The position numbers were made by a program, and so were the translations under genes. The notes under the pieces were generated by a model that worked only from the letters and a program-made list of their open reading frames with translations, did no database searches and was not told the origin of the DNA. A stretch of DNA of 64,000 bases from Escherichia phage B9-1: sequence record OQ420740.1. One strand, given 5' to 3'. Each line of letters starts with the position of its first letter. The first letter of the stretch is position 1. Of the stretch, positions 32,895-49,732 are shown piece by piece.

Positions 32895-33935
32895 ATGTCA
32901 AAACCTAGTTTTCCATTAGAGATTTGGGCAGAGGAGGATCAGGTTCTGCCTAACACCCACAGACAGAACAGGCTACGCCCGATTGATGATTTGTGGAGAA
33001 AAGGTTGGGATCTTGGTCAAAAGCCGTCATGTGAAGAACTTAACTATATTTTCAATATGCTCGGGACTTGGGCAAAATATATTGCTGACGAGCAGATCCC
33101 AGCCCAAGAAGGCCGTTATCTGGTACGTGATAATAACCTAAGTGATCTTTTGAACATTCCTGTTGCCCGTAGAAACCTTGGGATTATTACTAAGGAAGAG
33201 GCAGACACCAGGTATGTAAAAGTTACAGGCGATACAATGACAGGCCCCTTAGGTTTGCAGCGTATCAACTTTAAAGCTGCTGAGACAGATAAGGCTTGGA
33301 TAGAGACAACTATTGGCCCAGATAAGACAACTCTCGACTTTGGGTTAAGTGATAACACTGGGGCGTTTGATGATGGTGGCACATCTACAGTAGATGCGTT
33401 TCGTTGGAGATTCCAGCCAACTCAGCCAGATATTAATCCAGAGTTCACTTTGATGTACCTGAACGCGATCACGGCTAACCGTGCGCTGTTGAAAGTGGTA
33501 GGTAATGTTGAAGTTGTCGATAACATGCGGTGTAACAACCTTACCATTAGCAGCACAGCAACATTCACCAACTGTAATGTGGCTAGTCAGTTGACAGCTG
33601 GGTCCGTTTATGTTAATGGCGGCGCAAGTTGTGACAGTATGGTTGTAAGAAGCCAGCATTGTGTTGTCGGTAACAGAAATGTGGTGCGCTCTGTGAATGG
33701 AGTGACGGCTAACGGTAACGGCGATGTAACGATCACCATCCCGCAGACAGGGGTACAGGATATCAGAATCGGTGCAAGACTTGTTGATGGTGTTTCTGAA
33801 TCTCCAGTTCGCAACGGCTACGTTGTCACAGGTTGGCATTTTGGTGATAAAAAAGAGATGCGTGGTTCAACCTACTGGGCAGGACCTTTACAAAAACTTG
33901 TAAACGGTCAATGGATCACTGTTAATTATGCGTAG
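32895..33935 (+). CDS. tail fibre protein, paralogue A (P2 gpH-like C-terminus)
   Basis: 346 aa; paralogous to ORF 34948 in N-terminal region; C-terminus LQKLVNGQWITVNYA resembles the conserved fibre C-terminus (P2 gpH ...IQKYINGTWYNVAQV as recalled). Confidence 0.55.
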   Translation: MSKPSFPLEIWAEEDQVLPNTHRQNRLRPIDDLWRKGWDLGQKPSCEELNYIFNMLGTWAKYIADEQIPAQEGRYLVRDNNLSDLLNIPVARRNLGIITKEEADTRYVKVTGDTMTGPLGLQRINFKAAETDKAWIETTIGPDKTTLDFGLSDNTGAFDDGGTSTVDAFRWRFQPTQPDINPEFTLMYLNAITANRALLKVVGNVEVVDNMRCNNLTISSTATFTNCNVASQLTAGSVYVNGGASCDSMVVRSQHCVVGNRNVVRSVNGVTANGNGDVTITIPQTGVQDIRIGARLVDGVSESPVRNGYVVTGWHFGDKKEMRGSTYWAGPLQKLVNGQWITVNYA

Positions 33936-33949
33936 ATCGGAGGACTAGC

Positions 33950-34534
33950 ATGAAAATACTTCAAGAGTTTAAACTTTACCAACCGGGATCTGGCGAATAC
34001 CACACCAACAAGGAGACCAAGGAGCTGACTCCTCAGGAGGTTGAGGATTACACAGCATACACTGGATATTTTTTACGTAATGATGATGGCGATTGGTATG
34101 TGCAATCACGAACACTGCGACAAGAAAATCCAGGCTGTATCTTCTTACTTGTTGACGAGAAGGGTATTCTTAAGACATCTACAGAAGAACCTGATGCCTT
34201 GTGGCCTGCTCCGGGTCTTCGTGTGGTTATCGCCAAAAAAGAAGAGGTACCAGAAAACATTATGCTCCACCACGACGCTTTGCGTTTAGTTGGTGATGAA
34301 TTTGTCACAGACAATGAATTCTTTGTTCAACAGGCAGAGGGTGTCATAGAGACAGAACTTGCTTGGGCTACTGCTAGAATTGGTGCCTATCAAGACATGA
34401 TTGACCTTGAATACGATCTTACTGATGACCAAAAACGCAACATCAGAGATTTGAAAATGTACAGGGTAAAACTTCTTGAAATAGATACATCTAAAGCCCC
34501 TGACATTTTCTTCCCGGAACGACCTACCCTCTAA
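33950..34534 (+). CDS. tail fibre assembly protein (Tfa-like chaperone)
   Basis: 194 aa directly after fibre paralogue A; C-terminal LAWATARIGAYQDMIDLEYDLTDDQKRNIRDLKMYRVKLLEID...FFPERP resembles the Tfa family conserved region. Confidence 0.5.
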   Translation: MKILQEFKLYQPGSGEYHTNKETKELTPQEVEDYTAYTGYFLRNDDGDWYVQSRTLRQENPGCIFLLVDEKGILKTSTEEPDALWPAPGLRVVIAKKEEVPENIMLHHDALRLVGDEFVTDNEFFVQQAEGVIETELAWATARIGAYQDMIDLEYDLTDDQKRNIRDLKMYRVKLLEIDTSKAPDIFFPERPTL

Positions 34535-34947: not shown

Positions 34948-35994
34948 GTGATGACTAAACCAGTTATCCCTCTTGATATTTGGGCCAATCAGGATGTTGT
35001 GCTTGAAAATACGGGAGAATTGAATAAGTCCCAACCAAAAAAAGAAGAGAGATTGAAAGGTTGGGATATGACACAAAGAGTGGCATGTGAAGTTGTTAAC
35101 TTTGAACTTCACATGCTTTCTGCGTGGTTAAAGCATTTAACAGAAGATGTTGTCCCAGGATGGGATAATAGATTCTTAAGGGTCACTAATAATCTGGCAG
35201 ACGTTCCAGACAAAGCTGCTGCACGTCAAGTTCTCAATGTATACTCGCCTGAAGAAATGGATGACCTTTATGTTGACAAGACTGGAGACACAATGATCCA
35301 GACTCAAACTTTAGGTCTTCAAAGAATTGAGTTTGCATCTGCGTCAACAGACAATGCGGCGATATACACCACCATAACTCCAGACAAGACGATGATGGAT
35401 TTCTGGATTATGGACAACATCGGTGGCGCTGACGGCACAGACCTTGATGATCCTTCTCACCAAATAGACGGTTTCCGTTGGAGATTTCAACCTTCTGGTG
35501 GGCAGCCTGTGTTTTCGGCTATGAAGCTCAATGCTATAACTGCCAACCGTGCAAGACTGGCTATCCAAGGAAATCTTGAATGCAATGATGCAAAAAGCTC
35601 CTCTGCAAATGCCAATGCGGTAACGATACCAAGAGCCACTGTTAATGGACAACAATCCTGCGGCAGCGCTCAAATAGGTGGAAGAGTAGATTGTAACGAT
35701 AAAACCGCCAGGGGTCAATATGCAACAGTTGGTGGGAGAAACGTGGTCCGCAGGGTAAATGGTAGTAGCGCAGATAGCAGTGGTAACCTTACTATCCCTA
35801 TGCCTAGTAGGGGTGTTGAAGATGTAAGGATAGCAAACCGTTTCAGAACCACCTACAGAGAATCAAGAGTATACCCTGGGCATGTAATGTGCTCCGGCAA
35901 TTACGCCTATAAACACCCGTATCAAGGTGACTATTGGACTGGTGCTATTCAAAAATTTGTAAACGGTCAATGGATCACGATATCTTATGCTTAA
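34948..35994 (+). CDS. tail fibre protein, paralogue B
   Basis: 348 aa; N-terminus MMTKPVIPLDIWANQDVVLENTGELN parallels MSKPSFPLEIWAEEDQVLPNTHRQN of paralogue A; C-terminus IQKFVNGQWITISYA. Confidence 0.55.
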   Translation: MMTKPVIPLDIWANQDVVLENTGELNKSQPKKEERLKGWDMTQRVACEVVNFELHMLSAWLKHLTEDVVPGWDNRFLRVTNNLADVPDKAAARQVLNVYSPEEMDDLYVDKTGDTMIQTQTLGLQRIEFASASTDNAAIYTTITPDKTMMDFWIMDNIGGADGTDLDDPSHQIDGFRWRFQPSGGQPVFSAMKLNAITANRARLAIQGNLECNDAKSSSANANAVTIPRATVNGQQSCGSAQIGGRVDCNDKTARGQYATVGGRNVVRRVNGSSADSSGNLTIPMPSRGVEDVRIANRFRTTYRESRVYPGHVMCSGNYAYKHPYQGDYWTGAIQKFVNGQWITISYA

Positions 35995-38025: not shown

Positions 38026-38034
38026 TATATCTGA

Positions 38035-38059
38035 CCGCTCCTGACGGGGCGGTTTTCTT
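38035..38059 (+). terminator. terminator-like hairpin
   Basis: Stem CCGCTCC / GGGGCGG (one G-T wobble), loop TGAC, then TTTTCTT. Confidence 0.45.
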
Positions 38060-38073
38060 ATCTGGAGAACACA

Positions 38074-41000
38074 ATGCTTCCAATCCCTTTGCTAAAACTT
38101 GGTCGTCATTTCCTCGATAAGAGGGGTGGAGTTAAGGAACTTGCTGTTCTGTCATACCCAATAGACAACAGTGACGGTACAAGCACTACAGTAGCTTATG
38201 TAAATAGCTTAGCTATACTTTTTGACGACGGTCAGCTTAATATTACTGGCTATAACAAGTTCGGGGAGTGTCGCACTGGGGATCGTAACCCTATAAACTA
38301 CCCGAGCGAGACGGCCTGGAATGTCGATCATGTGTGGAGAGCAGACCGTGCGTTTGTGATCCGGACTTTTGATAACCAGTTTTTCTACATCGGCTGCACT
38401 GCAGGTCTTATCGGATCCACTGCGGCAGGTGGTAACGATGTTTGCGTAAACGAGTGGACACCTCTTCCGGAACAGATTGTTCAAGGATTGCACCTTGACA
38501 CCCACCCAGAGCGCCTTATCGAGGTAATGGGTGGTATTAACAACACTGTTTGGGTTATGGCAGAGGCTGAGGGTGACGGCATTTTACACCTGTACGGGTC
38601 TGGTAACAACACCTACGGATCTTTACATGTAGATAAGAACCAGCATGCAACTCCTGTAAAGATTGGTGAAACATCAGAAAATCCTGAAACAGGCCCTTGG
38701 AAAAACCCAAGTATCAACTGCGAGGTGCATGACAACTCTGTTATTTTCGGTGGTCCTAGAGGTTTCTGGATTGCTGGGTACGACTTTCTGAGAAACAATA
38801 GTAGAAACACTCTCGTTTGGCCTCCTGCTCAGATTACCCGTGACGATTTGAGAGGAATTCCTGCAGATGAGGAGTGGAAAGGGTTCATGTGCGGTCCGAA
38901 TGGGGCAGTGGTTGCAACACAAAGAATGCACAGACCTGATGACCAACAACTTGTTAACGTATTTTATGGTCAAAACGTTTGGGGAGATGATACCTGGCGT
39001 GCTTTGAATATAACCTACACCCATGAGGTGATAATGGCTCGTGGGTACGGCACAAGTGGCATTTTCTTCAACAATGGTACTAAGCAGTATCGTGGCTTCT
39101 CTCGAAACCTGTGCAACGATATTGGCGCACAATCTGCAAACAATAATCCCCGTGCCGATTTTGTTCATTACCAGGCCCTTGCTACGGCCAAATATGTTGA
39201 GCAACGTTTGCCAGTTAGCTGGACAGAGAGTGTTTATTTCCAAGGCATCCATAGAGAAGGTTTTTTAGGGACCTTTACTGTTGTTAATGGTAAACTTTGG
39301 TGGTCAGGTATCCCAAGGGGAAGTTTTGCAGGCTCTAATAACCTGTTTGGCGGTAGACTTAATAGTCAAGGGTTCACAGAGGTTCCTGAGAATTGGTATA
39401 AAAATGTCCCAGTAGATAGTTGGGGTGTTGATGATATTTTTGACGTTAACGGTGTTAGCAGCGTTAGCAATATTTACATTGGTGACACGGTCAAGATGAA
39501 ATTGAAGCCTCAGCCAGAGGGGGCTACGTTCATTATTGACAAGATTGAGCTGGTAAATGCTGCGGGTACGGTTGTTACAGATGCAAATTACCAATTCTCC
39601 ACCAACTGGAACCACGGCGGGGCCAACGAAGTTGTTGTTACTCAGTATAACAGGAATGTTAACAGACGTGGCCTGTACTCTGTAAAAATAACCTATCATG
39701 ACAAGCATGGCACAGGAAGAACTCACACGACAAGGACTTTGAACTGGAACACCATAGTTCCTGCGTATCCTTCTGACGGTAAGTGGCATACCGTTGGTAG
39801 AAACAAGCAGTTCCATGTTAACGATACTGTATACTTCGGGCTGAATGGGACTCAGCCTGCGGTAGAAGGAGATACATCGTATATGGTCCGACTCCACAGA
39901 ATGGATGCTGGATCAGTCACCTATGATGTTACCCAAGAGATTTATGATCAGAGACGAAATACCTACAACAACTTAGTGCAGACACAGGCCGTATGGGAGT
40001 TCAACCCTAACGGCAGAGGCGGTAAAATGTTGCAGGTTAACGAGCAAAACGGAACGTCGTTGACTGTCCACGAACACCCAGACCCTTGGCCTGATCCTGG
40101 AAAACCTCACCCAGGTGCTCGTACACTGAAAATTGTCAGCCATGATGCAGGATATTTCGGAATACGCTGGGAAGCCACAGTAAGATATGCAGACGGGACA
40201 ACAAACAACATAGGGATTACACTTGGAGGCACCAGTGAAGATAGCTCTCTGAAAATTGCCTACACCCCTAGGGGCATCTCTATTGATAATATGGATGTTG
40301 TTCGCAATGGTTACGGCGATGTGAATGTCAAAGTTACTCTTGGCGAACATCTTGGTGGGGAAAGGATCATCATGTATGCCTTTGATCATGACCCGCGAAC
40401 CAATGGAACTTATGCAAATCAGGCATGGAGTTACCTGATAAATGCACCTGAGCCGAATACTAAAGAGTTCTACTACGGTATGAAGCGAGATGTATGCAAG
40501 AAAACAGGAACACATGACTGGATTGCTATCTGCGTTAAAGATGAGCGCACAGCTTGGGATGAGCCTGTTAATAGATGGTTCATAGGTATTCCTACCAGAA
40601 GCGATAAGTATATCGCAGAATACATTGTGTGCATGGGCGGTACCAACCTAAATATGTGTTGGAACGAAGATGCAAACAAATACTCTGATTATGACTATAT
40701 GAGAGATTACTCTTGTAATCAGTGGTTTAACCAATCAACAGGGTATCCTCCACGACAGGCGAGAGTAAACCCTGCAATCTTTACAGATACGCAGGTTTTC
40801 TTGACAAAACAGGCCAACGAGGTTCAGACCTTCAAGAACAAATACGACCCTAACAAGTGGTTTTATAACTGTTATGGCGCATTTTTCTGGGGTCCTGGCG
40901 AACTGCCTAATGGAGGATCTTGCTTCGAGGCTGCAACTTACGCCAGTGACAGGTTCATGGGGCAGGTTAAGAAGTACAAGATAATCCCAGGGCCTGAAAC

Positions 41001-43710
41001 TTTAGGCAACGCTGTTGACCCATATATCATCATGACAGCACTAAGATCGAACATGGACGGAACATCCATATCTATGCAAGTTCCAGTAACAAACGGGTAC
41101 AAACGTGTTGTGATGATCATTAAGTGCGACTTAATAGGTAAGCAAGTTCTTGCAGAAAACGGAACCTCAACACATCTATTCGAGACTGCTCTGCATTATC
41201 AGTTTGCTGATTCACCTTTTGCAGGGGATAAGAGAATATCTGATACAGACAACACTCGATGCAAGAAATTTATGCTTGGTGGTGGATGGTGGTGGTATGA
41301 ATTTGATTTAACAGACAAATTCACTGACACGTCTAAAGTGGTGACAGGGCTTCGTCTAGATCTTGGCGAAAACATGCACAAAAGTGTTTGTGATGGCACC
41401 TACGGTGACCCAACAATCTACTTAAAGTATGTCTCTTTTGAGCATCCGGAAGATGTTGTTTACGGTCCAAAACTGAGATTGTTTGGCAGTTGGATTGCAA
41501 AAGACAGGGTAGGCATGGGTAAAAAGGTAAGAGGGTTCTTGGTTGATGCAGGAACAGAAGACATGCTGGTTAATGCAGTGTGGCCTGAATTACCTGGGAC
41601 TCAGTGGGATAACTCAGCCAAGTCCATAAACTGGTTCAACATTCACAGAGCTATGTGGACAACTAACTGCTACCTGTGGAAAGAGTTGAATGACGGCGCT
41701 TTCGGGTTTACAGGTGGCAGAAGAATGGCAATCATTTGCTGGACAACGCTGCAAAGATGTTATGACCATGACTACGAGATTGGGGGTAGGGCATGGAAAA
41801 ATATTAGGGATAGAATCATAACTAACTTCGCAGACCCTAATGGTGGTGGAGCGTATGGCTTCGACTGCAGCAGGCTCATCCATTTGAACGGGTCCTCTGC
41901 ATATAAGAAAGAGGGTTACTCTGGATCTATGATTGAGTGGGGCCTGGTGAAAGATGCTCGCGTATTGATGGGTCAACAACTTGCTGCTGCAATAGGACCT
42001 AACGCAGTGCAGTCTGTTAAACCAGCGTGGTTCGATATCCCAATATGGTCATCTGGAACACCAGGAACTGCGGCAATCAACCCTACCACTGGGGATCTGG
42101 AAATCTCTTGGGAGGACTTGAAGCAGGTTGGTGGCTGGGATAAGACAGGCTACCAGGTACAATGGTGGAGATCTGACGGATCGTTAGCGGCTGATGAGTT
42201 TGTTAAGGACAATTTCTACACTATGTCCTCTGCAAAAGCACAGCAATTGTTTGGTCAGGCAACTCCGTCAACGATCACCATGTCCATGTGCTGTAAAGAC
42301 AACAGGACTGGAGCCCTGGGACCAAGGGTTGCTAAAGTTTTCTCAGGTATTAAATGGAATCTCCCTGTTCAAAGTGTTTCATGGAAGCAAATAGGTGATA
42401 ACAAGCTGCTGGTTACTCCTGCCTGTCAGTTCAACGCAACTCTTAACGTTGATCCTGCTGTTGCGGCAAACTCAGCTAAAGCTTCTGACTTCTCTGTGTC
42501 TAACACTGCTATGGCAGATGTGAGGAAGATTGATACACTGAATGCCAGAATTACCTGTAAAAACACTTATGGCACATTCCAGATCATCAACAACTTCACA
42601 GATGCTGATTCTAAGGTAGTGAGGACAGCAAGCCAGACTATGCAGTTGGGAACTCTGGCATACTCTGCCTTGATCACTGAACAATCTCCTACCCTTCAGG
42701 GTGGGGGTGTTGGTAAGTTGATCACAACACCTGTGTGGAAGCCAAATGAGTGGGTTGTGTTTGATTTGACTGTAGACTTCTCCAGTGACAATAACTGGAC
42801 ATGGGTAAGGAATTGCTTGTCACAGTTGATGGGTGGTCCAAGCTCTGTTAGTGATAGCCACGACTCTACTGACCCGAGCGTGTTCCAGGTGGGTAAAACT
42901 CACCCAGAAACTGGGGCACAGTTGCCTGACAGGAAGTATGCTTTGGTTTGCATCTCTTACGGAAAAGCAGATGTCACCTTCTCAGGGACGCACACTTATA
43001 ACGGAACTTACAACTTCTCAAGGAAGTATAGTCTCAAGGCTGGTAACATTATAGATGAAGTTGGTGCGTTGTATAACCCAGGTAACGGCATAGGGATTGT
43101 GGGTGGTAAACTGCAGATGCAGGAACCTTCTATTACCCCTTCCAATGTGTCTGGGATTAGAAAGACTTGGGAAAGCAGTAATACCAACATTGCAACAGTG
43201 GATGCTACCACAGGGCTGGTAACATTTAAAGCCCCTGGTAATGTCACTATAAAGTTTGTAGTTACTGATGATGCAGGGCGCAAAACGTCTTCAACATCTT
43301 TTACTGTCAAACAGATGACACCACAGTGGAGAATGTGGATAGGTACAGCAACAAACGGGGCATACCCTAATCCGGCAGGTACTTCTGGTATGAAGACTTT
43401 CTCTACAAGCAAACCGATGGAGTACGGCAGCGGTCCTAAGGTAGGGCAGATGGTGTACTTTGGTGCGTATATTCCTGAAATTATAGGGCTTCCGAGAAGT
43501 CAGCTTCAGTTGCTGTTTGGGGCTGGTGTTGACGATCTTGCCACTTTCGGGTATAGCGACAACATCGAGGCTGCAAGGAGTTCAGGATGGGTAGGGTTCA
43601 GAATGGAGTCTGGAAAGGAAGGCAGGATTCTAGGGACAGCCTCTATAGGTGTTATGTTCCCTGGTGACCAGCAGTATCGTCTGGAAGCCTACGCGACTTT
43701 CTCTCTTTAA
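38074..43710 (+). CDS. giant virion-associated protein with RCC1-like repeats and C-terminal Ig-like (Big_2-type) domain
   Basis: 1878-aa uninterrupted ORF; N-terminal 400 aa carry recurring G-x-N-x-x-G motifs (YNKFGECRTGD, LYGSGNNTYGSLHV, VFYGQNVWGDDT, GSNNLFGGRLNSQGF); segment at 43141-43312 (IATVDATTGLVTFKAPGNVTIKFVVTDDAGRKTSSTSFTV) matches Big_2 pattern. Confidence 0.55.
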   Translation: MLPIPLLKLGRHFLDKRGGVKELAVLSYPIDNSDGTSTTVAYVNSLAILFDDGQLNITGYNKFGECRTGDRNPINYPSETAWNVDHVWRADRAFVIRTFDNQFFYIGCTAGLIGSTAAGGNDVCVNEWTPLPEQIVQGLHLDTHPERLIEVMGGINNTVWVMAEAEGDGILHLYGSGNNTYGSLHVDKNQHATPVKIGETSENPETGPWKNPSINCEVHDNSVIFGGPRGFWIAGYDFLRNNSRNTLVWPPAQITRDDLRGIPADEEWKGFMCGPNGAVVATQRMHRPDDQQLVNVFYGQNVWGDDTWRALNITYTHEVIMARGYGTSGIFFNNGTKQYRGFSRNLCNDIGAQSANNNPRADFVHYQALATAKYVEQRLPVSWTESVYFQGIHREGFLGTFTVVNGKLWWSGIPRGSFAGSNNLFGGRLNSQGFTEVPENWYKNVPVDSWGVDDIFDVNGVSSVSNIYIGDTVKMKLKPQPEGATFIIDKIELVNAAGTVVTDANYQFSTNWNHGGANEVVVTQYNRNVNRRGLYSVKITYHDKHGTGRTHTTRTLNWNTIVPAYPSDGKWHTVGRNKQFHVNDTVYFGLNGTQPAVEGDTSYMVRLHRMDAGSVTYDVTQEIYDQRRNTYNNLVQTQAVWEFNPNGRGGKMLQVNEQNGTSLTVHEHPDPWPDPGKPHPGARTLKIVSHDAGYFGIRWEATVRYADGTTNNIGITLGGTSEDSSLKIAYTPRGISIDNMDVVRNGYGDVNVKVTLGEHLGGERIIMYAFDHDPRTNGTYANQAWSYLINAPEPNTKEFYYGMKRDVCKKTGTHDWIAICVKDERTAWDEPVNRWFIGIPTRSDKYIAEYIVCMGGTNLNMCWNEDANKYSDYDYMRDYSCNQWFNQSTGYPPRQARVNPAIFTDTQVFLTKQANEVQTFKNKYDPNKWFYNCYGAFFWGPGELPNGGSCFEAATYASDRFMGQVKKYKIIPGPETLGNAVDPYIIMTALRSNMDGTSISMQVPVTNGYKRVVMIIKCDLIGKQVLAENGTSTHLFETALHYQFADSPFAGDKRISDTDNTRCKKFMLGGGWWWYEFDLTDKFTDTSKVVTGLRLDLGENMHKSVCDGTYGDPTIYLKYVSFEHPEDVVYGPKLRLFGSWIAKDRVGMGKKVRGFLVDAGTEDMLVNAVWPELPGTQWDNSAKSINWFNIHRAMWTTNCYLWKELNDGAFGFTGGRRMAIICWTTLQRCYDHDYEIGGRAWKNIRDRIITNFADPNGGGAYGFDCSRLIHLNGSSAYKKEGYSGSMIEWGLVKDARVLMGQQLAAAIGPNAVQSVKPAWFDIPIWSSGTPGTAAINPTTGDLEISWEDLKQVGGWDKTGYQVQWWRSDGSLAADEFVKDNFYTMSSAKAQQLFGQATPSTITMSMCCKDNRTGALGPRVAKVFSGIKWNLPVQSVSWKQIGDNKLLVTPACQFNATLNVDPAVAANSAKASDFSVSNTAMADVRKIDTLNARITCKNTYGTFQIINNFTDADSKVVRTASQTMQLGTLAYSALITEQSPTLQGGGVGKLITTPVWKPNEWVVFDLTVDFSSDNNWTWVRNCLSQLMGGPSSVSDSHDSTDPSVFQVGKTHPETGAQLPDRKYALVCISYGKADVTFSGTHTYNGTYNFSRKYSLKAGNIIDEVGALYNPGNGIGIVGGKLQMQEPSITPSNVSGIRKTWESSNTNIATVDATTGLVTFKAPGNVTIKFVVTDDAGRKTSSTSFTVKQMTPQWRMWIGTATNGAYPNPAGTSGMKTFSTSKPMEYGSGPKVGQMVYFGAYIPEIIGLPRSQLQLLFGAGVDDLATFGYSDNIEAARSSGWVGFRMESGKEGRILGTASIGVMFPGDQQYRLEAYATFSL

Positions 43711-43722
43711 CAAGTAGTAGAT

Positions 43723-43753
43723 AAAAAAGGGGCCAAATGGCCCCTTTCTTTTT
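43723..43753. terminator. bidirectional rho-independent terminator at strand switch
   Basis: Stem GGGGCC / GGCCCC, loop AAAT, flanked by AAAAAA upstream and TTTCTTTTT downstream; converging plus and minus blocks meet here. Confidence 0.75.
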
Positions 43754-43757
43754 ATAG

Positions 43758-43958
43758 TTAGTAATACTCCCAACATGCCCCATCTTCAGACGGCTTGACG
43801 CGCTTACCTTTATGGTCAACATAGGTATAGCCACAACCTTCACAAATAACAGGTGCTGCATAGCCTTCCTTCCACTGATCCTCAGTGATCAGACCTTCCA
43901 AATCTTTGCAGTCAAAGCCAAACAACTCTTCAGAGCAATCTTTACAAAAATCAGCCAT
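43758..43958 (-). CDS. small zinc-ribbon-like protein
   Basis: 66 aa with Cys pairs (CKDCSEE...CKD and CEGCGY); last gene of minus block before terminator. Confidence 0.45.
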   Translation of the reverse strand: MADFCKDCSEELFGFDCKDLEGLITEDQWKEGYAAPVICEGCGYTYVDHKGKRVKPSEDGACWEYY

Positions 43959-43961
43959 TTC

Positions 43962-44444
43962 TCAGTCCTCGCATTTAACAAATTTTTCTACAGATCCACC
44001 AAGCACAGCTTGTTGTTTGATGGCACTTTCTTCTTCATAGTGGATAGACTTATGTGCCGTACCTCCGAACTTACCTGTGTGGAAGGTGTGCACCCAAATC
44101 TCTTTGGGAAGGGATTTATTCTCTTCTTCCACCAATTCCCACATACCCCACAAGTGATCTGTGATATCTTTGATGAAATACCCCTCGCCGAGGTTTGTAT
44201 TCACACTATAGGCCGATTCGTGATCTCCACAAATATAACGGAAGGCAGTGTACTCCTTCCCAGGTGTGAAGTGGGTATCCATCAGTATAGCTGTTAGAGA
44301 ATTAGGGTCTCGAAAGCCCAAGAACTTTAGTTTAACAATTTCGACGTTCACACTTGCAAGATTATCCATGACAATCTCCTCTGCTTGGTTGATGAGATAA
44401 TCATATATAAATCTGGTGTTGATGTCAAGCTTAATTTTAAGCAA
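43962..44444 (-). CDS. hypothetical protein
   Basis: 160-aa ORF in minus-strand early-type block; no recognisable motif. Confidence 0.5.
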   Translation of the reverse strand: MLKIKLDINTRFIYDYLINQAEEIVMDNLASVNVEIVKLKFLGFRDPNSLTAILMDTHFTPGKEYTAFRYICGDHESAYSVNTNLGEGYFIKDITDHLWGMWELVEEENKSLPKEIWVHTFHTGKFGGTAHKSIHYEEESAIKQQAVLGGSVEKFVKCED

Positions 44445-44532
44445 TTTGAGAGGGTATTTTATTTAGAAGGGTAATCACACAGAGGCAGGTAGTTTATGAA
44501 GGCATAGGCCTCGTTTGAGGCCTTAAAATAGG

Positions 44533-44916
44533 TTACGACGATACCTTGACAGATTTATCTGATAAAGCTGGGAAACCTAAAGCAGCACCAAGACCGCCAT
44601 ACGCTATCCACCACTGGAGTTCATCGTGGCACCATTTTCCAATCAAGAAGGTGCTGTAGTAGCGGGTCAGTATCTTGGCATATGCTTTAGGATCTGCATT
44701 CTCCGGTATGATAATGCTTGGTGGGCGTTTGTTATGACCACAGCAGCAGTTTAAGGTCTTCAATCCTGCCGCCCATAGGCTCATGATAGGTTTAGCCATG
44801 CACTTATCAAGGCACACACGTTTTTTGCCGTCACGGAGCTTTTTAGGCACATCAACGATAACATTTGGATGCTTGGCACCTTTCACTTTCCAATTATAAG
44901 ATTTACACTTGCACAT
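44533..44916 (-). CDS. cysteine-rich hypothetical protein
   Basis: 127 aa with clustered Cys (MCKCKSY, CLDKC, LNCCCGH) and hydrophobic C-terminus; RBS GGAGAC before ATG. Confidence 0.45.
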   Translation of the reverse strand: MCKCKSYNWKVKGAKHPNVIVDVPKKLRDGKKRVCLDKCMAKPIMSLWAAGLKTLNCCCGHNKRPPSIIIPENADPKAYAKILTRYYSTFLIGKWCHDELQWWIAYGGLGAALGFPALSDKSVKVSS

Positions 44917-44946
44917 TTAGTCAGTCTCCATCTAGAAAGCCATATT

Positions 44947-45117
44947 TTACTTAAAGTCTTTGTCACCTATTACGATTGCACGAATCCACTCATTGTGATG
45001 CTCAATGGATGTAAGGTGTAACATAATGCAGTGATTGTCATTACCAAACACGGCTCGATAAGCCTTAGCAGCACCATGATATAACTTCCACATCACGTAA
45101 TGGTATCTTCGTTTCAT
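44947..45117 (-). CDS. small hypothetical ORF (56 aa), absent from ORF track
   Basis: ATG overlaps stop of upstream HAD-like gene (ATGA at 45114-45117); fills an otherwise 197-nt gap; hand translation MKRRYHYVMWKLYHGAAKAYRAVFGNDNHC... to TAA at 44947-44949. Confidence 0.3.
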   Translation of the reverse strand: MKRRYHYVMWKLYHGAAKAYRAVFGNDNHCIMLHLTSIEHHNEWIRAIVIGDKDFK

Positions 45118-45593
45118 GGTTCTTTCTCCGGTTCAGGATCTGGATAATCTTCAATAATAAAGGGCCATCCGTTACGCTTAGCGTCAGACTTATACTCAAT
45201 CTCCTTCATTGCAAACTCTAACTGATTCTTAGCCGGAATGCAAGCTGGAGAATCATCAACCCAGATGTCTGGGTAGATATCAAACTGCGCCAGATAAGCG
45301 GCCTTCTGAACGCCTTCAGTATAAAACACTCCAACATCTAACTCCTTGCGCCAGTATTCGATGTCCACGTTGTCTTGAGTGATGAATCGGAAAGTCACAA
45401 GATAGACTGTCCACCCTTCCTTCTTCAGGTCCTTAATAAGGCGGGAGAAGATGAAAGGGCTCGCATTAAACGTTCCATCAAAGTCGATAGCAATGATGTG
45501 GGTGCCGTGACGAGTCTCATATGGATTGCTCGTGGTGAGATTGCTGTAGTTGAAAGGTACTTCTTCTCCGCAGTAGCTGTAGTCCATATTCAC
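45114..45593 (-). CDS. HAD-superfamily phosphatase-like protein
   Basis: 159 aa; motif I IAIDFDGTF (D-x-D-G-T) and later WVDD acidic motif typical of HAD phosphatases or nucleotidases. Confidence 0.5.
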   Translation of the reverse strand: MNMDYSYCGEEVPFNYSNLTTSNPYETRHGTHIIAIDFDGTFNASPFIFSRLIKDLKKEGWTVYLVTFRFITQDNVDIEYWRKELDVGVFYTEGVQKAAYLAQFDIYPDIWVDDSPACIPAKNQLEFAMKEIEYKSDAKRNGWPFIIEDYPDPEPEKEP

Positions 45594-45865
45594 ACCTTCT
45601 CGTTGATAAATTTACGGGCGGTTTGGTGAGTTGTTTCTGCTGTCTTCAGAATGATATTAATTTTATTGTCAAGATCATTCATCTCAGCAGTTAATTCAGG
45701 AATCTCTCCAGCATGCATGGTGAAATCATACATAGACATACCCAGGATCTCATTGATTCGGCGGTTGCATTCTGCAGCACGTTGGTTCATTTTCCAAGCT
45801 AACACTAGAGCCTCTTGCGTAGCCTCTAGTGCAAAGTCTAATACGTCAGCTTCTTCTTTCGTCAT
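45590..45865 (-). CDS. hypothetical protein
   Basis: 91-aa ORF, start overlaps downstream gene; helical-type composition. Confidence 0.45.
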   Translation of the reverse strand: MTKEEADVLDFALEATQEALVLAWKMNQRAAECNRRINEILGMSMYDFTMHAGEIPELTAEMNDLDNKINIILKTAETTHQTARKFINEKV

Positions 45866-45921
45866 CTCAGTCTCTCTTGTTGTATTGTTGATAGGTGTAT
45901 GAATGCTTTATAACTCACCTT

Positions 45922-46488
45922 TTATTCAAACTGCAATAGCAAATCCACTACCGCGCTAGGTCTGTCAACAAACTCACCGGGTCCACATGCCCACAGAGGG
46001 TATCCGTCTACATACCGCCAAATCCAACCTGCAGTGTGGAGTTCTAGCAGGGCAGTACCGTCCTTACTGTCAACCACTCTTTCCCACAGTGTTGGGCAGC
46101 GAAGCTTGAGGATCGGATCCCCTCCCTTATACCCATCCATGTAGATACCCATTGCAAAGTTCAGCATCATCTTTTTGTGCACTGACCTCTTACTGAGGGT
46201 GCTCATCACTTCCTCTTTGTGGATGTTTGTAAGCTTCTCCTTGGCTACCTGCAGATCGTTGCAGCCATTGTTCAGAAGATCTTCCAGACACTTGACCCGA
46301 AGGTCGTGAATATCTTTGTCGTGCACCGTTGGTACAGGGTCGTAGCGATATAGCACTGTTGATACAAGGTTGCTCGGGTGTGGGTCTGACAGCAACCCAT
46401 AACCCCAATACTCCTCTGTATCTGAAAGGACAAGACACCCAATGTCTCTGTCAAGCTTTCCTGTGTTGTAAGCCACATTGACCGCCAT
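45922..46488 (-). CDS. hypothetical protein
   Basis: 188-aa ORF in minus block; no recognisable motif. Confidence 0.5.
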   Translation of the reverse strand: MAVNVAYNTGKLDRDIGCLVLSDTEEYWGYGLLSDPHPSNLVSTVLYRYDPVPTVHDKDIHDLRVKCLEDLLNNGCNDLQVAKEKLTNIHKEEVMSTLSKRSVHKKMMLNFAMGIYMDGYKGGDPILKLRCPTLWERVVDSKDGTALLELHTAGWIWRYVDGYPLWACGPGEFVDRPSAVVDLLLQFE

Positions 46489-46490
46489 AA

Positions 46491-46736
46491 TTATAGCTCC
46501 ACTAGCAAAGTGCTCTCAAAATGCCTCTCATGCAGACCACTATAAGGAACCACTTCCACAACACCGTCGCGGATGTATGGAGTCATCATGGTGACATAAT
46601 CACCGAACGGGTTGGCATTATCACTAACCACGACCACATGCTGCCCCTCCTTGGCAGAGTGCCAGATAGATCTGCACTTCATCATGTGTTCGAGAGCGCC
46701 AGGTAAAATCTTGTTACGTTCTTTACGGGTCTTCAT
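46491..46736 (-). CDS. hypothetical protein
   Basis: 81-aa ORF, tightly packed with neighbours. Confidence 0.45.
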   Translation of the reverse strand: MKTRKERNKILPGALEHMMKCRSIWHSAKEGQHVVVVSDNANPFGDYVTMMTPYIRDGVVEVVPYSGLHERHFESTLLVEL

Positions 46737-47182
46737 AACAGATATAGCTCCTTATGAAAGTGGGCTTTCAATTTCTCACCGAGAAACTTCTTGATACCTT
46801 CCTCTAAAGTGTTTTCGATGTAGTCCAGCTTAACTGCTTCGATAGACATATCATAGATCGCCAGCTCTAAGCTGTCAAGTCCCATCATAGCATGAACCAT
46901 AAGATTTTCATCTTCAGATACATTCAGGGGACTTCCTATAACATCTGGAGGCAGAATAGTTTCCCAATTATTCTGGGCGGTAGATCTCCCGCCATCCACC
47001 TTACGTCTCAGCTCGAATGTATTCTTAGTGTAGAACACTTCATAAGAAACGATACGACTGTCACTCTCATAATAGACGAAGTTCAAGTAGGAGCCCAGCC
47101 GTAGTCGGCAAACTTCTACCCCAAACCATTGTTTCTTATAAGAATTCAGGCTAATGCTGTCGCATTCACGTTTGCTCAACAC
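46733..47182 (-). CDS. hypothetical protein
   Basis: 149-aa ORF; stop overlaps next gene start. Confidence 0.5.
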   Translation of the reverse strand: MLSKRECDSISLNSYKKQWFGVEVCRLRLGSYLNFVYYESDSRIVSYEVFYTKNTFELRRKVDGGRSTAQNNWETILPPDVIGSPLNVSEDENLMVHAMMGLDSLELAIYDMSIEAVKLDYIENTLEEGIKKFLGEKLKAHFHKELYLL

Positions 47183-47198
47183 GGCTCTCTCCTTCTTG

Positions 47199-47432
47199 TT
47201 AATCTTCGTAAATAATGATTTCTGCTTTAGGTTTTCGTGCTTTCAGGTCCAGCTCTATCCAGTGCACCATCGCTGTTTCAAGAAAAACAGCCTGGATGCA
47301 TCCGTCTTCAGCGTGCCCTACCAGCATAACAAGATCTTCACATTCATCATCTGCATCACGGACATACAAGATCTCTCCAGATTCAAAGTCTTTCACAACC
47401 TGATTGCTGGATAATTTACGAATTTTTGCCAT
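47199..47432 (-). CDS. small protein, diverged member of tandem paralogue family
   Basis: 77 aa; pattern MAKIRKLSSNQ...FESGEILYVRDADDECEDLVMLV parallels the 87-aa paralogues upstream. Confidence 0.45.
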   Translation of the reverse strand: MAKIRKLSSNQVVKDFESGEILYVRDADDECEDLVMLVGHAEDGCIQAVFLETAMVHWIELDLKARKPKAEIIIYED

Positions 47433-47433
47433 A

Positions 47434-47697
47434 TCAGAAACCCTCTAAAAAGCTCTTGTAGAAAATAATCTCAGTATCCACACCAGTCACGATCTTGTCG
47501 TTCCTGATTTCATCTGTAAGATAGGTGTCAAAACGCAGCACCTGTGTGGTATTGTCACACATCCACTCGGCTGTTACCATGGCAAAAATCTTAGCATCTT
47601 CATTATCTGGTGTAAATGTCACCACCTCACCGCATTTAAACTTTTCGATAGGTTGCGTGTTAGCTTTTGGTTCTGCAATGGTGATTTTCGTGGTCAT
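47434..47697 (-). CDS. small protein, tandem paralogue 3
   Basis: 87 aa; shares length and motifs with 47697..47960 and 47960..48223. Confidence 0.5.
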   Translation of the reverse strand: MTTKITIAEPKANTQPIEKFKCGEVVTFTPDNEDAKIFAMVTAEWMCDNTTQVLRFDTYLTDEIRNDKIVTGVDTEIIFYKSFLEGF

Positions 47698-47960
47698 TAT
47701 TCTCCTCCTTCTTTTGAATAGCTTGTCTCTCCAAGGATGGTAATTTTGGTGTCAAGCTCTGTAACTTTCATGTTTGGTGGCAGATCGTACAACTCATTAT
47801 TTTCTAAATCGAACCCCCATACACAATGTTCCCCTGTTTTGACAATCATAACTATGTTTTGAATGCCGTCTCCGTCACAACTTACCACGGTCCCACATGG
47901 AAAACTGTCTGCACGCTTTTTGTTCTTCACTTTAGAATTGAATACAATGCTAGTAGCCAT
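47697..47960 (-). CDS. small protein, tandem paralogue 2
   Basis: 87 aa (MATSIVFNSKVKNKKRADSFPCGTVV...ITILGE); start/stop overlap with neighbours. Confidence 0.5.
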   Translation of the reverse strand: MATSIVFNSKVKNKKRADSFPCGTVVSCDGDGIQNIVMIVKTGEHCVWGFDLENNELYDLPPNMKVTELDTKITILGETSYSKEGGE

Positions 47961-48223
47961 TATTGTTCCTCCACCATAACTTCGCCAAGAATTTCTATGC
48001 AGGCATCCATTTCTGTAACAACCAAGGTGTGAGGTAGTTCTGCAAACACCTTTCTGAACAGGTCAAATACCCCAACATATATGTTTGCAGGATGTGATCT
48101 CACAACAAGTGCTGTATTCACATCTCCAAGTTCATCAACAAACATCACCACAGTACCTGGAGCTACTGAAGACAGATACTTCTTAGTTTTACGGTTGGAT
48201 GCAAATTTTAACTCTGTTGCCAT
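47960..48223 (-). CDS. small protein, tandem paralogue 1
   Basis: 87 aa (MATELKFASNRKTKKYLSSVAPGTVV...IEILGE); RBS AGGAGG before ATG. Confidence 0.5.
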   Translation of the reverse strand: MATELKFASNRKTKKYLSSVAPGTVVMFVDELGDVNTALVVRSHPANIYVGVFDLFRKVFAELPHTLVVTEMDACIEILGEVMVEEQ

Positions 48224-48238
48224 AAATAATCTCCTCCT

Positions 48239-49720
48239 TTATTTAACGTACTCGATTAATTCCACAGTTCTCCCAAAGCTAGGGATATAATTTTTATTAT
48301 ACCCTTCGGTGAGAACCCATAAAGTATCGTACTTTTTCCACTTGTTGTCAACAGCCTTTTGTTCAAAGTTATGCTCAAAGTATAGGTCGGTAAGGACGAT
48401 GACATCTTTTGCATTTGGTATGTTAGCATCCAGATACTCGAACACGCAGGCGGCTGTTGTGCCCCATGTTGAGTGGACCTCATAGTTGATCATCTCATCG
48501 ATGTTACCGCGAGTGTATACTTTAACCTCTCCAACCTCGGTTGACCAACAGAACATCGTAACCTTAAACTCTTTATACAAATTGCACAACCCGGTGATCT
48601 CATTGAACATTTTCTTTAAAGTTCTTTGTGAGATCGATCCAGAAACGTCTAAAGCCACCACAATATCTATAGTGTTTTCCGGATTACGACCAGGAACAAT
48701 AACGTGCTGATTCTTGTTTATAGCTCCAACTTTTCGCATTGTGGTGGTCAAAGACCCAGATCGGCGACCCGGTTTTCTGTAGGTTAACTCAGCCTTCCTT
48801 TTAGATAACATACGTTGCTTAATAATATCTATATAATTGATTACAGGCTTGCCTCTGTTTTTGACAAACTCGCGCACCGCCTCGGGGCAACGACCTCCTG
48901 AAGCTTGCATTGCTGCTTCCAACATGTCACCAGAGTCCTGCATGGCCTGATCTTTATCCGATTGACTGATTACTGGTTGCGGCTGATCATACCCCATAGC
49001 CTTTCCAAGATCATCACTAGTGCCACCGTTCCCGCTCATGTGATCATCGGTTTGTCGTTTATCTCCTTGGGAGTTCTCTCCTTTACCGTTCTTACTTTTA
49101 CCGCTATTCTGATCTCTTTGTTTATCAAGAACTGCATAGACGTTCTCAGCAATCCATCCATGAAACTTCATGTCGCAGTAGCAACTAGCTAAGAAGCCAA
49201 AAGGCTTACCTTTTACGAACTCAGTGCTTTTCCCCTTCGGGAAGAAAACACAAGGAGGCTTGCTAAAGTCAACCACAAGACCTGTGTTGATAACGTGATC
49301 ACAAGCAATATTGAACAGTTCCGGCTCAAAGCTTTTACCACGGACCAGATGATCACAGATAATATGCCCCACCTCATGTGACAGAAGAAAGGCCACCTCT
49401 TTCACAGATTTTGGGGAATAGAAAACCTCAGCCATCTCAAACTGCTTGTCAGTCAGAGATGCTTTAAGAATGGTTTTACGCTCATCTGCCAACCCCATAA
49501 TGAACTCAGGGCTGTAGTAGATGCGTTTATGGTCTGTTGCCATAGTGGAGCACCATGTGTGGTTTTCTACGAACTGCAACCCTGACAACAGTGTGCCATA
49601 AAACGGCAGCTTTTCAAGAAGGTACATGCGAGCGGCCTGCAGCATTCGCAAGGCATCATCTTTTTGTGCGGTAATGATTTCTGAACTTCTGCTATCCATT
49701 AAAACTCCAGAAGGGGCCAT
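48239..49720 (-). CDS. metallopeptidase-like (HExxH) plus von Willebrand factor A domain protein
   Basis: 493 aa; N-terminal region has LSHEVGHIICDH (HExxH); C-terminal region has MIDAS-type DVSGSIS in IDIVVALDVSGSISQ; this architecture typically partners with MoxR-type AAA+ ATPases. Confidence 0.6.
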   Translation of the reverse strand: MAPSGVLMDSRSSEIITAQKDDALRMLQAARMYLLEKLPFYGTLLSGLQFVENHTWCSTMATDHKRIYYSPEFIMGLADERKTILKASLTDKQFEMAEVFYSPKSVKEVAFLLSHEVGHIICDHLVRGKSFEPELFNIACDHVINTGLVVDFSKPPCVFFPKGKSTEFVKGKPFGFLASCYCDMKFHGWIAENVYAVLDKQRDQNSGKSKNGKGENSQGDKRQTDDHMSGNGGTSDDLGKAMGYDQPQPVISQSDKDQAMQDSGDMLEAAMQASGGRCPEAVREFVKNRGKPVINYIDIIKQRMLSKRKAELTYRKPGRRSGSLTTTMRKVGAINKNQHVIVPGRNPENTIDIVVALDVSGSISQRTLKKMFNEITGLCNLYKEFKVTMFCWSTEVGEVKVYTRGNIDEMINYEVHSTWGTTAACVFEYLDANIPNAKDVIVLTDLYFEHNFEQKAVDNKWKKYDTLWVLTEGYNKNYIPSFGRTVELIEYVK

Positions 49721-49732
49721 TGGCCCCTGTCA

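What the first reader, a model, noticed from the sequence alone, without database searches (positions are those of the whole stretch)
38074..43710. Giant 1878-aa protein combining RCC1-like repeats with an Ig-like domain
The N-terminal 400 aa show recurring motifs (YGSGNNTYGSLHV, FYGQNVWGDDTW, GSNNLFGGRLNSQGF) typical of RCC1/beta-propeller blades. Near the C-terminus a Big_2-like segment appears (43141-43312). Large Cys/Trp-rich central regions have no recognisable family. RCC1-like propellers are uncommon in phage tail proteins.
Basis: partly seen in the sequence, partly recalled or inferred. Interest (0 to 1): 0.65.

Follow-up and report, generated by a model that had tools for sequence, protein, structure and literature searches.

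The report
Known rV5 gp27 tail accessory protein

Summary
The ORF at 38074-43710 (+) is real and uninterrupted (1878 aa). The window is an rV5-like Vequintavirus. The gene is the ortholog of rV5 gp27 (also 1878 aa) and of BASEL bas49_0041/bas54_0041, annotated "lateral tail fiber protein with intimin domain". At least 107 phage records hold it.

Big_2 passes Pfam's threshold (aa 1682-1733). The RCC1-like call also holds, but only by profile evidence:
- A profile of aa 1-470 hits genuine seven-bladed RCC1 proteins (E down to 7e-18).
- aa 5-442 aligns (hhalign 99.9%) with "tail proteins" of sister genera that pass Pfam RCC1.
- AlphaFold2 failed on this region, so the propeller fold is inferred, not shown.

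The centre (aa 446-1588) has no sequence relatives outside the family. Models show Ig/FN3-like sandwiches, one CBM-like jelly-roll and a conserved Trp-rich helical core. The last ~130 aa occur as two alleles.

The ortholog tolerates transposon disruption on K-12, and ECP26 carries a nonsense codon. Yet dN/dS is about 0.06.

Best reading: a low-copy, N-terminally anchored accessory adhesin that extends host range. The gene is already known; the RCC1-like annotation is a modest addition. Interest is low to moderate.

The parts
38033..38062 (+). Terminator-like hairpin plus T-tract between the upstream fibre gene (gp28-like, ends 38025) and this gene. It corresponds to rV5 predicted terminator t028.
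   Evidence: Scan, sequence, rV5 Table S4. Function not tested.
38064..38069 (+). Shine-Dalgarno-like GGAGAA, 4 nt before the ATG.
   Evidence: Read from the sequence.
38074..43710 (+). CDS of 1878 aa; ortholog of rV5 gp27, bas49_0041 and bas54_0041 (phrog_15684).
   Evidence: dN/dS is 0.06-0.07.
38074..39408 (+). aa 1-445: divergent RCC1-like domain, probably a seven-bladed propeller. Blades at about aa 37-79, 89-132, 149-198, 225-267, (275-320 inferred), 328-365 and 398-427. It is the most conserved part of the protein and is shared with 'tail proteins' of sister genera.
   Evidence: The fold is not confirmed.
39409..40272 (+). aa 446-733: beta-rich region, probably two or three sandwich domains, with no family match and low model confidence.
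40273..40605 (+). aa 734-844: Ig/FN3-like beta-sandwich (pLDDT 60-79).
40606..40977 (+). aa 845-968: conserved, partly helical segment (for example YDYxRD, KQANEVQ). Orphan, with low model confidence.
40978..41445 (+). aa 969-1124: beta-jelly-roll sandwich resembling carbohydrate-binding modules and the accessory sandwiches of glycoside hydrolases (pLDDT 70-85).
41446..42027 (+). aa 1125-1318: Trp-rich (5.3%), highly conserved, predicted helical core with invariant E1162, D1163, NWFNxHRAMW, CWxxLxRCY, EIGG and SMIEWG. Function unknown; orphan.
42028..42372 (+). aa 1319-1433: FN3-like beta-sandwich (weak Pfam fn3 hit, E=0.039; pLDDT 62-77).
42373..42837 (+). aa 1434-1588: the segment that diverges most between sub-families (14-21% identity to distant homologs), mostly beta.
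42838..43308 (+). aa 1589-1745: two Ig-like domains, the second being Pfam Big_2 (aa 1682-1733). This is the best-modelled part (pLDDT 80-92).
43309..43707 (+). aa 1746-1878: C-terminal beta domain (phrog_215 C-terminus). It exists as two alleles in the genus and is the candidate distal ligand-binding tip.
43726..43757 (+). Terminator-like hairpin 16 nt after the stop codon, corresponding to the rV5 bidirectional t027/t026. It marks the end of the tail module; convergently oriented genes follow.

Best explanation
The gene encodes the Vequintavirus ortholog of rV5 gp27. This is a very large, low-abundance, non-essential virion accessory protein encoded as the last gene of the tail-fibre module.

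Shown:
- It is intact and under strong purifying selection.
- It has an N-terminal ~445-aa domain homologous to RCC1-like repeats, a long centre that is largely beta-sandwich with one CBM-like jelly-roll and a conserved Trp-rich helical core, a C-terminal Big_2 Ig-like domain, and a dimorphic ~130-aa end domain.
- Its ortholog can be disrupted without loss of infectivity on E. coli K-12.

Inferred:
- The conserved RCC1-like domain is the anchor that docks the protein on the baseplate or fibre network. This domain and the gene's position are kept in Phapecoctavirus and Seunavirus 'tail proteins', whose C-terminal parts differ.
- The sandwich domains form an extended, probably non-trimeric stalk.
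- The Ig-like, CBM-like and allelic C-terminal domains make weak, reversible contacts with variable surface glycans.
- The protein therefore raises adsorption or extends host range on particular strains rather than acting as the essential receptor-binding protein.
For: Identity and synteny:
- Full-length match to phrog_15684.
- 107 phage records hold at least 80% of the gene at 80-98% DNA identity.
- It has the same position and length as rV5 gp27 (1878 aa, 208,334 Da), bas49_0041 and bas54_0041.

Tail context:
- It follows baseplate wedge, short tail fibre, chaperone and fibre genes.
- The 604-aa SSE121 gp048 'tail protein', which carries the same N-terminal domain, occupies the same slot.

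RCC1-like N-terminus.

N-terminal anchor and distal C-terminus:
- Identity to distant homologs is 70-84% over aa 1-450 and 14-47% over aa 1441-1878.
- Relatives keep the N-terminal domain but carry different C-terminal parts, such as Big_2 or DUF285.
- The C-terminal 133 aa is bimodal: 73 records at 95% identity or more, and about 38 at about 60%.
- MaxBurger is 95-99% identical through the middle but 62% at the tip.

Accessory role:
- bas54_0041 tolerates transposon insertions on K-12, and fibre genes show host-specific conditional essentiality (preprint 10.1101/2025.11.20.689424).
- ECP26 has a nonsense codon.
- dN/dS is 0.02-0.14 in every region where it could be computed.

Low copy number:
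- A terminator-like hairpin lies directly upstream.
- rV5 virion MS found only 3 peptides, 3.1% coverage.
Against: - Virion incorporation is weakly supported. The three rV5 peptides are non- or semi-tryptic with modest scores, and gp27 is not listed among detected tail proteins in the paper's text.
- Cryo-EM of Bas49 and Bas54 found only three of nine annotated fibres, and none was assigned to this protein.
- The propeller fold, the oligomeric state and the attachment site are not shown. AlphaFold2 models were poor (mean pLDDT 44.7 and 54.7).
- The most conserved central segment (aa 845-968 and 1125-1318) is more conserved than a passive stalk would need to be. That hints at a function this model does not explain.
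- No ligand is known.
Confidence: 0.55

Rival explanations
1. The conserved central core (aa ~845-968 and 1125-1318, with the CBM-like jelly-roll inserted between them) is a novel glycan-degrading or glycan-modifying catalytic domain. The protein would then be a depolymerase-type fibre, like its neighbours in the locus.
For: - These segments are more conserved than the flanking sandwiches (0.56-0.69 against 0.28-0.47 identity to distant homologs).
- They carry invariant acidic and aromatic motifs: E1162-D1163, YDYxRD, WYEFD, NWFNxHRAMW.
- A CBM-like domain sits between them.
- Neighbouring fibre genes carry glycosidase or deacetylase domains (PMC8594841).
Against: - No hit to any enzyme family in Pfam, NCBIfam, PHROGs or PDB sequences, even at E<=10.
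- No outside homologs.
- AlphaFold2 did not fold this region (pLDDT 22-35).
Confidence: 0.2
2. The polarity is reversed. The RCC1-like propeller is the distal ligand-binding head, acting as a lectin or protein-binding platform, and the C-terminal Ig-like end attaches to the virion.
For: - Beta-propellers, including RCC1-like ones, are typical ligand-binding platforms (general knowledge).
- phrog_215, which matches the C-terminal module, is filed under 'head and packaging'.
Against: - The N-terminal domain is the conserved part across genera that infect different hosts, whereas the C-terminus is allelic and replaced between lineages. This is the usual signature of an N-terminal anchor and a C-terminal receptor end.
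- The first ~25 residues (MLPIPLLKL...) are nearly invariant.
Confidence: 0.15
3. It is not a tail component. It is either a head or neck decoration (Hoc-like fibre) or a non-virion protein that happens to lie at the end of the late operon.
For: - Arrays of Ig-like domains are typical of Hoc-like decorations.
- There is a weak profile hit to a 'decoration protein gp29' (E=0.2).
- The MS evidence is weak.
- No cryo-EM density has been assigned to it.
Against: - The gene position at the end of the tail-fibre module is conserved across genera.
- Abundant decoration proteins give high MS coverage in rV5 (gp61, 85%), unlike gp27.
- Some peptides were nevertheless detected.
Confidence: 0.08
4. The RCC1 resemblance is a chance or compositional match caused by Gly/Asn-rich beta-hairpins, and the N-terminal domain has some other fold.
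For: - The query is far below Pfam's gathering scores (22.5 against 150 bits; RCC1 and RCC1_2 at E~0.08).
- Only 2-3 blades are detectable in the query itself.
- There is no direct PDB profile hit and no confident model.
Against: - The E-values are for a 1.84-billion-protein library (7e-18 for P0023), with every blade of the true RCC1 proteins matching the same query segment.
- Two independent libraries agree (Pfam PF25390 and phrog_4219).
- Relatives aligned over 380 columns pass Pfam RCC1 and hit the HERC1 and UVR8 propellers in the PDB.
- The projected blade spacing of 50-76 aa fits seven blades.
Confidence: 0.07

Closest known systems
rV5 gp27 / BASEL bas49_0041 and bas54_0041 'lateral tail fiber protein with intimin domain' (phrog_15684)
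   Same: It is the same gene: the same length (1875-1878 aa), the same position after the gp28-like fibre gene, and 80-98% DNA identity in over 100 Vequintavirus genomes.
   Different: Nothing substantive differs. This copy carries the commoner C-terminal allele and an N-terminal region about 80% identical in DNA to rV5. Public annotations mention only the Ig/intimin domain, not the RCC1-like domain.
Seunavirus and Phapecoctavirus 'tail protein' (SSE121 gp048, PVP-SE1 gp40, 4MG, GAP31; phrog_11922; about 590-890 aa)
   Same: It shares the homologous N-terminal RCC1-like domain (hhalign 99.9% over 380 columns), Big_2 domains, and the same slot as last gene of the tail-fibre module.
   Different: Those proteins are a third to a half of the size. 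They lack the ~1150-aa orphan centre and have other C-terminal modules, such as DUF285/BspA-type repeats.
RCC1-like domain propellers (RCC1, UVR8, HERC1/2 RLDs, RPGR; Pfam PF00415, PF13540, PF25390)
   Same: The repeat signature is shared (hydrophobic strand followed by G-x-N-x-x-G-x-x-G), and a domain size of ~400-445 aa is compatible with seven blades. Profile-level homology is significant.
   Different: Most blades are very degenerate and the query is below Pfam's thresholds. There is no reason to expect GEF or Ran-related activity. The domain is extracellular and virion-associated, and the fold is unconfirmed.
Stand-alone RCC1 virion proteins of the Vequintavirinae phage W70 (W70_237 to W70_239, phrog_4219)
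   Same: They are RCC1-repeat proteins found in virions of the same subfamily by MS (PMC11370258). Residues 42-197 of this protein hit phrog_4219 at E=7e-8.
   Different: Those are ~40-kDa single-domain proteins encoded elsewhere in the genome. The relationship is distant, and their role is also unknown.
Ig-like (Big_2) decorations on phage and bacterial surfaces (intimin D1-D2, lambda gpV C-terminal domain, T4 Hoc, Sap S-layer)
   Different: This is not an intimin. It lacks the beta-barrel, LysM and C-type lectin parts, and NCBIfam intimin scores 21.7 bits against a cutoff of 1400.

Membership tests
rV5 gp27 orthologous group (phrog_15684) | Full-length sequence match | tested here: met
   The protein matches phrog_15684 over aa 1-1877 of 1878 at 4464 bits. 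It is 97% identical to P0001.
rV5 gp27 orthologous group (phrog_15684) | Conserved position as the last gene of the tail-fibre module, followed by convergently oriented genes | tested here: met
   Gene order matches EmilHeitz, MaxBurger, ECP26 and rV5.
RCC1-like domain (Pfam PF25390 / PF00415 / PF13540) | Score above Pfam's gathering threshold | tested here: not met
   PF25390 scores 22.5 bits against 150. RCC1 and RCC1_2 give E~0.08. Nothing was reported when the whole protein was scanned.
RCC1-like domain (Pfam PF25390 / PF00415 / PF13540) | Significant profile similarity to bona fide RCC1-repeat proteins | tested here: met
   The N-terminal profile hits P0023, P0024, P0027, P0029 and P0032 at E=7e-18 to 5e-4 in a 1.84-billion-protein library. 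These are strong Pfam RCC1 proteins, and P0023 matches UVR8 and RCC1 in the PDB. phrog_4219 matches at E=7e-8.
RCC1-like domain (Pfam PF25390 / PF00415 / PF13540) | Seven tandem blades of about 50-60 aa | tested here: inconclusive
   Directly detectable blades are at aa 47-84 (22.8 bits), 153-199 (E=2e-4 in the self-comparison) and 331-357 (E=0.03). Six blade positions are supported by projecting blade hits from aligned relatives, and one is inferred from spacing.
RCC1-like domain (Pfam PF25390 / PF00415 / PF13540) | Seven-bladed beta-propeller fold | tested here: inconclusive
Big_2 bacterial Ig-like domain (PF02368) | Score above Pfam's gathering threshold and an Ig-like beta-sandwich fold | tested here: met
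Intimin/invasin adhesins | Full architecture (N-terminal beta-barrel anchor, Ig-like array, C-type lectin-like tip), as required by the NCBIfam intimin model | tested here: not met
   NF033627 scores 21.7 bits against a cutoff of 1400, and only aa 1696-1734 match. PDB matches are limited to a single Ig domain.
Classical trimeric phage tail fibre or tailspike | Trimerisation elements: coiled coil, triple beta-helix, or a C-terminal S74 intramolecular chaperone | tested here: not met
   There are no such Pfam or PHROG hits. Fold searches return monomeric sandwich arrays only. The models are low-confidence in places, so this is not a proof of absence.
Classical trimeric phage tail fibre or tailspike | Presence in the virion at the baseplate periphery | not testable with these tools
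   The literature offers only weak rV5 MS evidence (3 peptides) and no cryo-EM assignment in Bas49 or Bas54.
Carbohydrate-binding module (beta-jelly-roll CBMs) | Beta-jelly-roll fold similar to known CBMs | tested here: met
Carbohydrate-binding module (beta-jelly-roll CBMs) | Sequence membership of a CAZy or Pfam CBM family, and demonstrated glycan binding | tested here: not met
   There is no Pfam hit at E<=10. Binding cannot be tested here.

The most novel reading that the evidence does not exclude
The ~1150-aa centre has no relatives outside this family and is under strong purifying selection. It may contain a new catalytic or receptor-recognition fold (aa 845-968 plus 1125-1318, wrapped around a CBM-like insert). 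Separately, the RCC1-like propeller may be a previously unrecognised baseplate-docking module used across rV5-like myoviruses to mount exchangeable adhesins. Either would define a new class of monomeric accessory tail fibre.
Probability: 0.2. Interest if true: 0.55.

Novelty: already known. Interest (0 to 1): 0.3.

Why it matters
rV5-like phages are among the most frequently isolated broad-host-range coliphages and are used in phage cocktails. Which gene products build their multiple fibres is still largely unknown (PMC8594841). In Bas49 and Bas54, only three of the nine annotated fibres could be placed by cryo-EM (PMC12143355).

This analysis adds three practical things:
- a domain map for the largest of these proteins;
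- a reasoned polarity, with a conserved RCC1-like anchor and a two-allele distal tip;
- a link to the shorter 'tail proteins' of Seunavirus and Phapecoctavirus.

Together these suggest where to cut the protein for expression, which tip to swap in host-range engineering, and what to look for in difference maps. It does not reveal a new kind of system.

Tried and rejected
Structure prediction and fold search
- AlphaFold2 on two overlapping halves with the 16-sequence family alignment gave mean pLDDT 44.7 and 54.7.
- Foldseek on the whole chain gave only generic Ig/cadherin arrays at TM of about 0.1.

Sequence and profile searches that found nothing useful
- PDB sequence search with the N-terminal profile (A3) found nothing at E<=10. 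The full-family profile (A2) found only two chance-level matches, at E=0.2 and 0.39.
- Pfam on ten sub-segments at E<=10 found only a weak fn3 hit.
- NCBIfam found only sub-threshold matches: two weak intimin hits on the Ig domain and two chance-level motif hits.
- The large protein search with the central-core profile found no outside relatives.
- The same search with the C-terminal profile found only family fragments and generic Big_2 proteins.
- PF26918, precomputed for close homologs, always co-occurs with Big_2 and is absent from the local Pfam copy. I treated it as another Ig-like model and could not resolve it further.

Other checks
- Self-BLAST found no internal repeats.
- Promoter-like sites were no more frequent than in shuffled sequence (17 against 14.0 +/- 3.2), so I make no promoter claim.

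Literature
- I found no paper describing an RCC1-like domain in gp27. The 'RCC1' hits in PMC10218006 were locus tags.
- The CB7 paper has no RCC1 text.
- The phi92 2012 paper is not held in the library, and phi92 did not appear among the DNA-level relatives of the Seunavirus gene.

Rejected ideas
- That the protein is an intimin (membership failed).
- That the ORF is an artefact of a missed frameshift (it is intact here and in EmilHeitz and MaxBurger).
Full report
**1. Observation**

The ORF at 38074-43710 (+) is a single uninterrupted frame of 1878 codons. It has an ATG start and a GGAGAA ribosome-binding motif at 38064-38069. Trp is enriched: 3.0% overall and 5.3% in aa 1141-1440. Cys is only mildly raised.

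**2. What the window and the gene are**

The gene matches phrog_15684 end to end, 1877 of 1878 positions. Megablast finds it in 120 phage records, 107 of them with at least 80% coverage at 80-98% identity. All are rV5-like Vequintavirus genomes, and the best are ECP26 at 97.7% and JEP1 at 97.3%.

It is the ortholog of three named genes:
- rV5 gp27, 1878 aa and 208,334 Da, listed as 'CHP; Big_2' in Table S3 of PMC3606486.
- bas49_0041 of the BASEL collection.
- bas54_0041 of the BASEL collection. Both BASEL genes are annotated 'lateral tail fiber protein with intimin domain'.

It is the last gene of the tail module. Upstream are the baseplate wedge, a deacetylase/glycosidase fibre, two short-fibre paralogs with a chaperone, and a 581-aa fibre. 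Terminator-like hairpins flank it at 38033-38054 and 43726-43747. These correspond to rV5's predicted t028 and t027/t026.

**3. The RCC1 question**

A whole-protein Pfam scan showed only Ig-like hits. Scanned alone, aa 1-470 gives:
- PF25390 'RCC1-like domain' at E=8e-5 over aa 44-199, in all five family members tested. At 22.5 bits this is far below the 150-bit cutoff.
- phrog_4219 'regulator of chromosome condensation' at E=7e-8.

An exhaustive hmmsearch of 1.84 billion representative proteins with the N-terminal profile returned 19 hits. They fall into two groups:
- Proteins of 588-891 aa that share aa 1-200 (E=1e-23 to 1e-29).
- Proteins matched 4-7 times each by the same query segment (E=7e-18 to 5e-4).

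Pfam shows that the second group are genuine six- or seven-repeat RCC1 proteins (250-350 bits on PF25390). The first group pass Pfam RCC1 (22-31 bits against 21.7) and carry Big_2. P0023 matches UVR8 (7e-47) and RCC1 (1e-27) in the PDB. The RLD-only relative P0025 matches HERC1 and UVR8 (2e-6 to 1e-4).

hhalign aligns aa 5-442 of the family with the first ~400 aa of the intermediates at 99.9% probability, E=2e-35, over 380 columns.

Blade-level evidence:
- A single-blade HMM built from true RCC1 proteins hits the query at aa 47-84 (22.8 bits) and weakly at aa 176-199.
- Profile self-comparison links aa 25-92 to aa 153-194 (E=2e-4) and to aa 331-357 (E=0.03).
- Projecting blade hits from aligned relatives gives blades at aa 37-79, 89-132, 149-198, 225-267, 328-365 and 398-427, with a gap at aa 275-320.

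AlphaFold2 did not fold this region (pLDDT below 50 for aa 145-435). Homology to RCC1-like domains is therefore established, but the propeller fold is inferred.

**4. The rest of the protein**

Homologs in the 5.8-billion-protein set number only 15 clusters. They keep aa 1-1433 at 45-74% identity, diverge over aa 1434-1585, and share a C-terminal module at about 36%. Conservation is highest over aa 1-450.

The two overlapping AlphaFold2 models are poor overall (mean pLDDT 44.7 and 54.7). They agree on confident beta-sandwiches at about aa 734-844, 969-1124, 1319-1429 and 1589-1759. They also show predicted helical, low-confidence segments at aa 845-965 and 1125-1319.

Fold searches gave these results:
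- Foldseek returns only strings of Ig/cadherin/S-layer sandwiches.
- The GH85 accessory-sandwich match and the CBM8 match recur with model 1, which shares only aa 680-1200 with model 2. This places the CBM-like fold at aa 969-1124.
- No catalytic domain was matched.

The centre has no relatives in Pfam, NCBIfam, PHROGs, PDB sequences or the large protein set. The helical segments carry many invariant Trp, Cys, Glu and Asp residues. What they do is unexplained.

**5. Evolutionary behaviour**

The N-terminal domain occurs in 212 phage records. Of these, 117 are Vequintavirus, and 95 are at under 60% identity in Phapecoctavirus, Seunavirus, and Cronobacter, Enterobacter and Klebsiella phages. They are usually annotated 'tail protein'.

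In SSE121 the 604-aa homolog sits in exactly the same slot. The Vequintavirus protein is therefore a roughly threefold-expanded positional ortholog.

The last 133 aa are bimodal across 113 records: 73 at 95% identity or more, and about 38 at about 60%. MaxBurger is 95-99% identical through the middle but only 62% at the tip.

dN/dS is 0.06-0.07 overall and at most 0.14 in every region where it could be computed. dS ranges from 0.09 to 1.55 between segments, which indicates mosaic recombination.

**6. Function-related evidence from the literature**

- rV5 virion MudPIT lists gp27 with 3 peptides, 9 spectra and 3.1% coverage. The peptides are non- or semi-tryptic with modest scores, and the main text does not name gp27 (PMC3606486). 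Virion incorporation is tentative.
- HIDEN-SEQ on Bas54 found that bas54_0041 tolerates disruptive insertions on E. coli K-12. It also found that different lateral fibre genes become conditionally essential on different clinical isolates (preprint 10.1101/2025.11.20.689424). I verified the orthology.
- ECP26 carries a TAT->TAG nonsense change at codon 617. This is consistent with dispensability in culture, or it may be a sequencing error.
- Cryo-EM of Bas49 and Bas54 located only three of the nine annotated fibres (PMC12143355).
- Stand-alone RCC1 proteins (phrog_4219) are abundant virion proteins of the Vequintavirinae phage W70 (PMC11370258).

**7. Interpretation**

The best-supported reading is a low-copy, non-essential accessory adhesin. 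It would be anchored by the conserved RCC1-like domain, extended by sandwich domains, and ended by Ig-like domains and an exchangeable tip that contacts variable surface glycans.

The polarity, the attachment site, the oligomeric state and the ligand are all inferred. The main rival is an unrecognised enzymatic core in aa 845-1318.

**8. Novelty**

The gene is already known and widely deposited. The RCC1-like annotation of its N-terminus, the positional orthology with the short Seunavirus and Phapecoctavirus 'tail proteins', and the two-allele tip are modest additions. None of the annotations or papers I examined mentions them.

Noticed in passing
window 39922-39924 (codon 617), compared with L003 (ECP26, MK883717.1): The closest relative, ECP26, has TAG where the window has TAT. 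This splits its gene into annotated CDSs of 617 and 1228 aa. It is either a natural knockout of a dispensable gene or a sequencing error. A few other records (naswa, Alma, APECc02) also list two CDSs.
   Followed up: partly
phage records MG0656xx (for example MG065662, MG065672, MG065677): About 15 records named 'Campylobacter phage', with host Campylobacter jejuni, carry this E. coli Vequintavirus gene at 80-93% identity and have rV5-like genome sizes. The host attribution looks doubtful.
   Followed up: no
window 47434-48223 (- strand): Three tandem 87-aa ORFs are paralogs at 20-26% identity with shared MxT...GxVV...VTExD motifs. Relatives annotate them as hypothetical proteins.
   Followed up: partly
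window 32895-33935 and 34948-35994 (+): Two paralogous short tail fibre genes (both phrog_4465) flank a tail fibre chaperone gene (33950-34534). This matches the arrangement described for rV5 gp33 and gp30.
   Followed up: no
window 38033-38062 (+): A terminator-like hairpin (9 pairs, 6 of them G-C, followed by TTTTCTTAT) sits inside the 48-nt gap between the upstream fibre gene and this gene. This suggests attenuated read-through and low expression of the giant protein.
   Followed up: partly
window 38074-43707, segment-wise: Synonymous divergence against the same relative varies more than tenfold between adjacent segments. Against EmilHeitz, for example, dS is 0.09 for aa 1434-1588 and 0.92 for aa 734-844. 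This indicates frequent recombination within the gene.
   Followed up: partly
window 43812-44297 (+): This 161-aa ORF has no PHROG match and overlaps genes that EmilHeitz and MaxBurger annotate on the opposite strand. It is probably not a gene.
   Followed up: partly
window about 44000-50000: GC skew and AT skew turn negative exactly where gene orientation flips after the tail module, consistent with a separate leftward transcription unit.
   Followed up: no
P0001, P0035, P0037 (close homologs): The precomputed Pfam accession PF26918.1 always accompanies Big_2 in these and in unrelated Big_2 proteins, but it is not in the local Pfam copy. Its identity could not be checked.
   Followed up: partly
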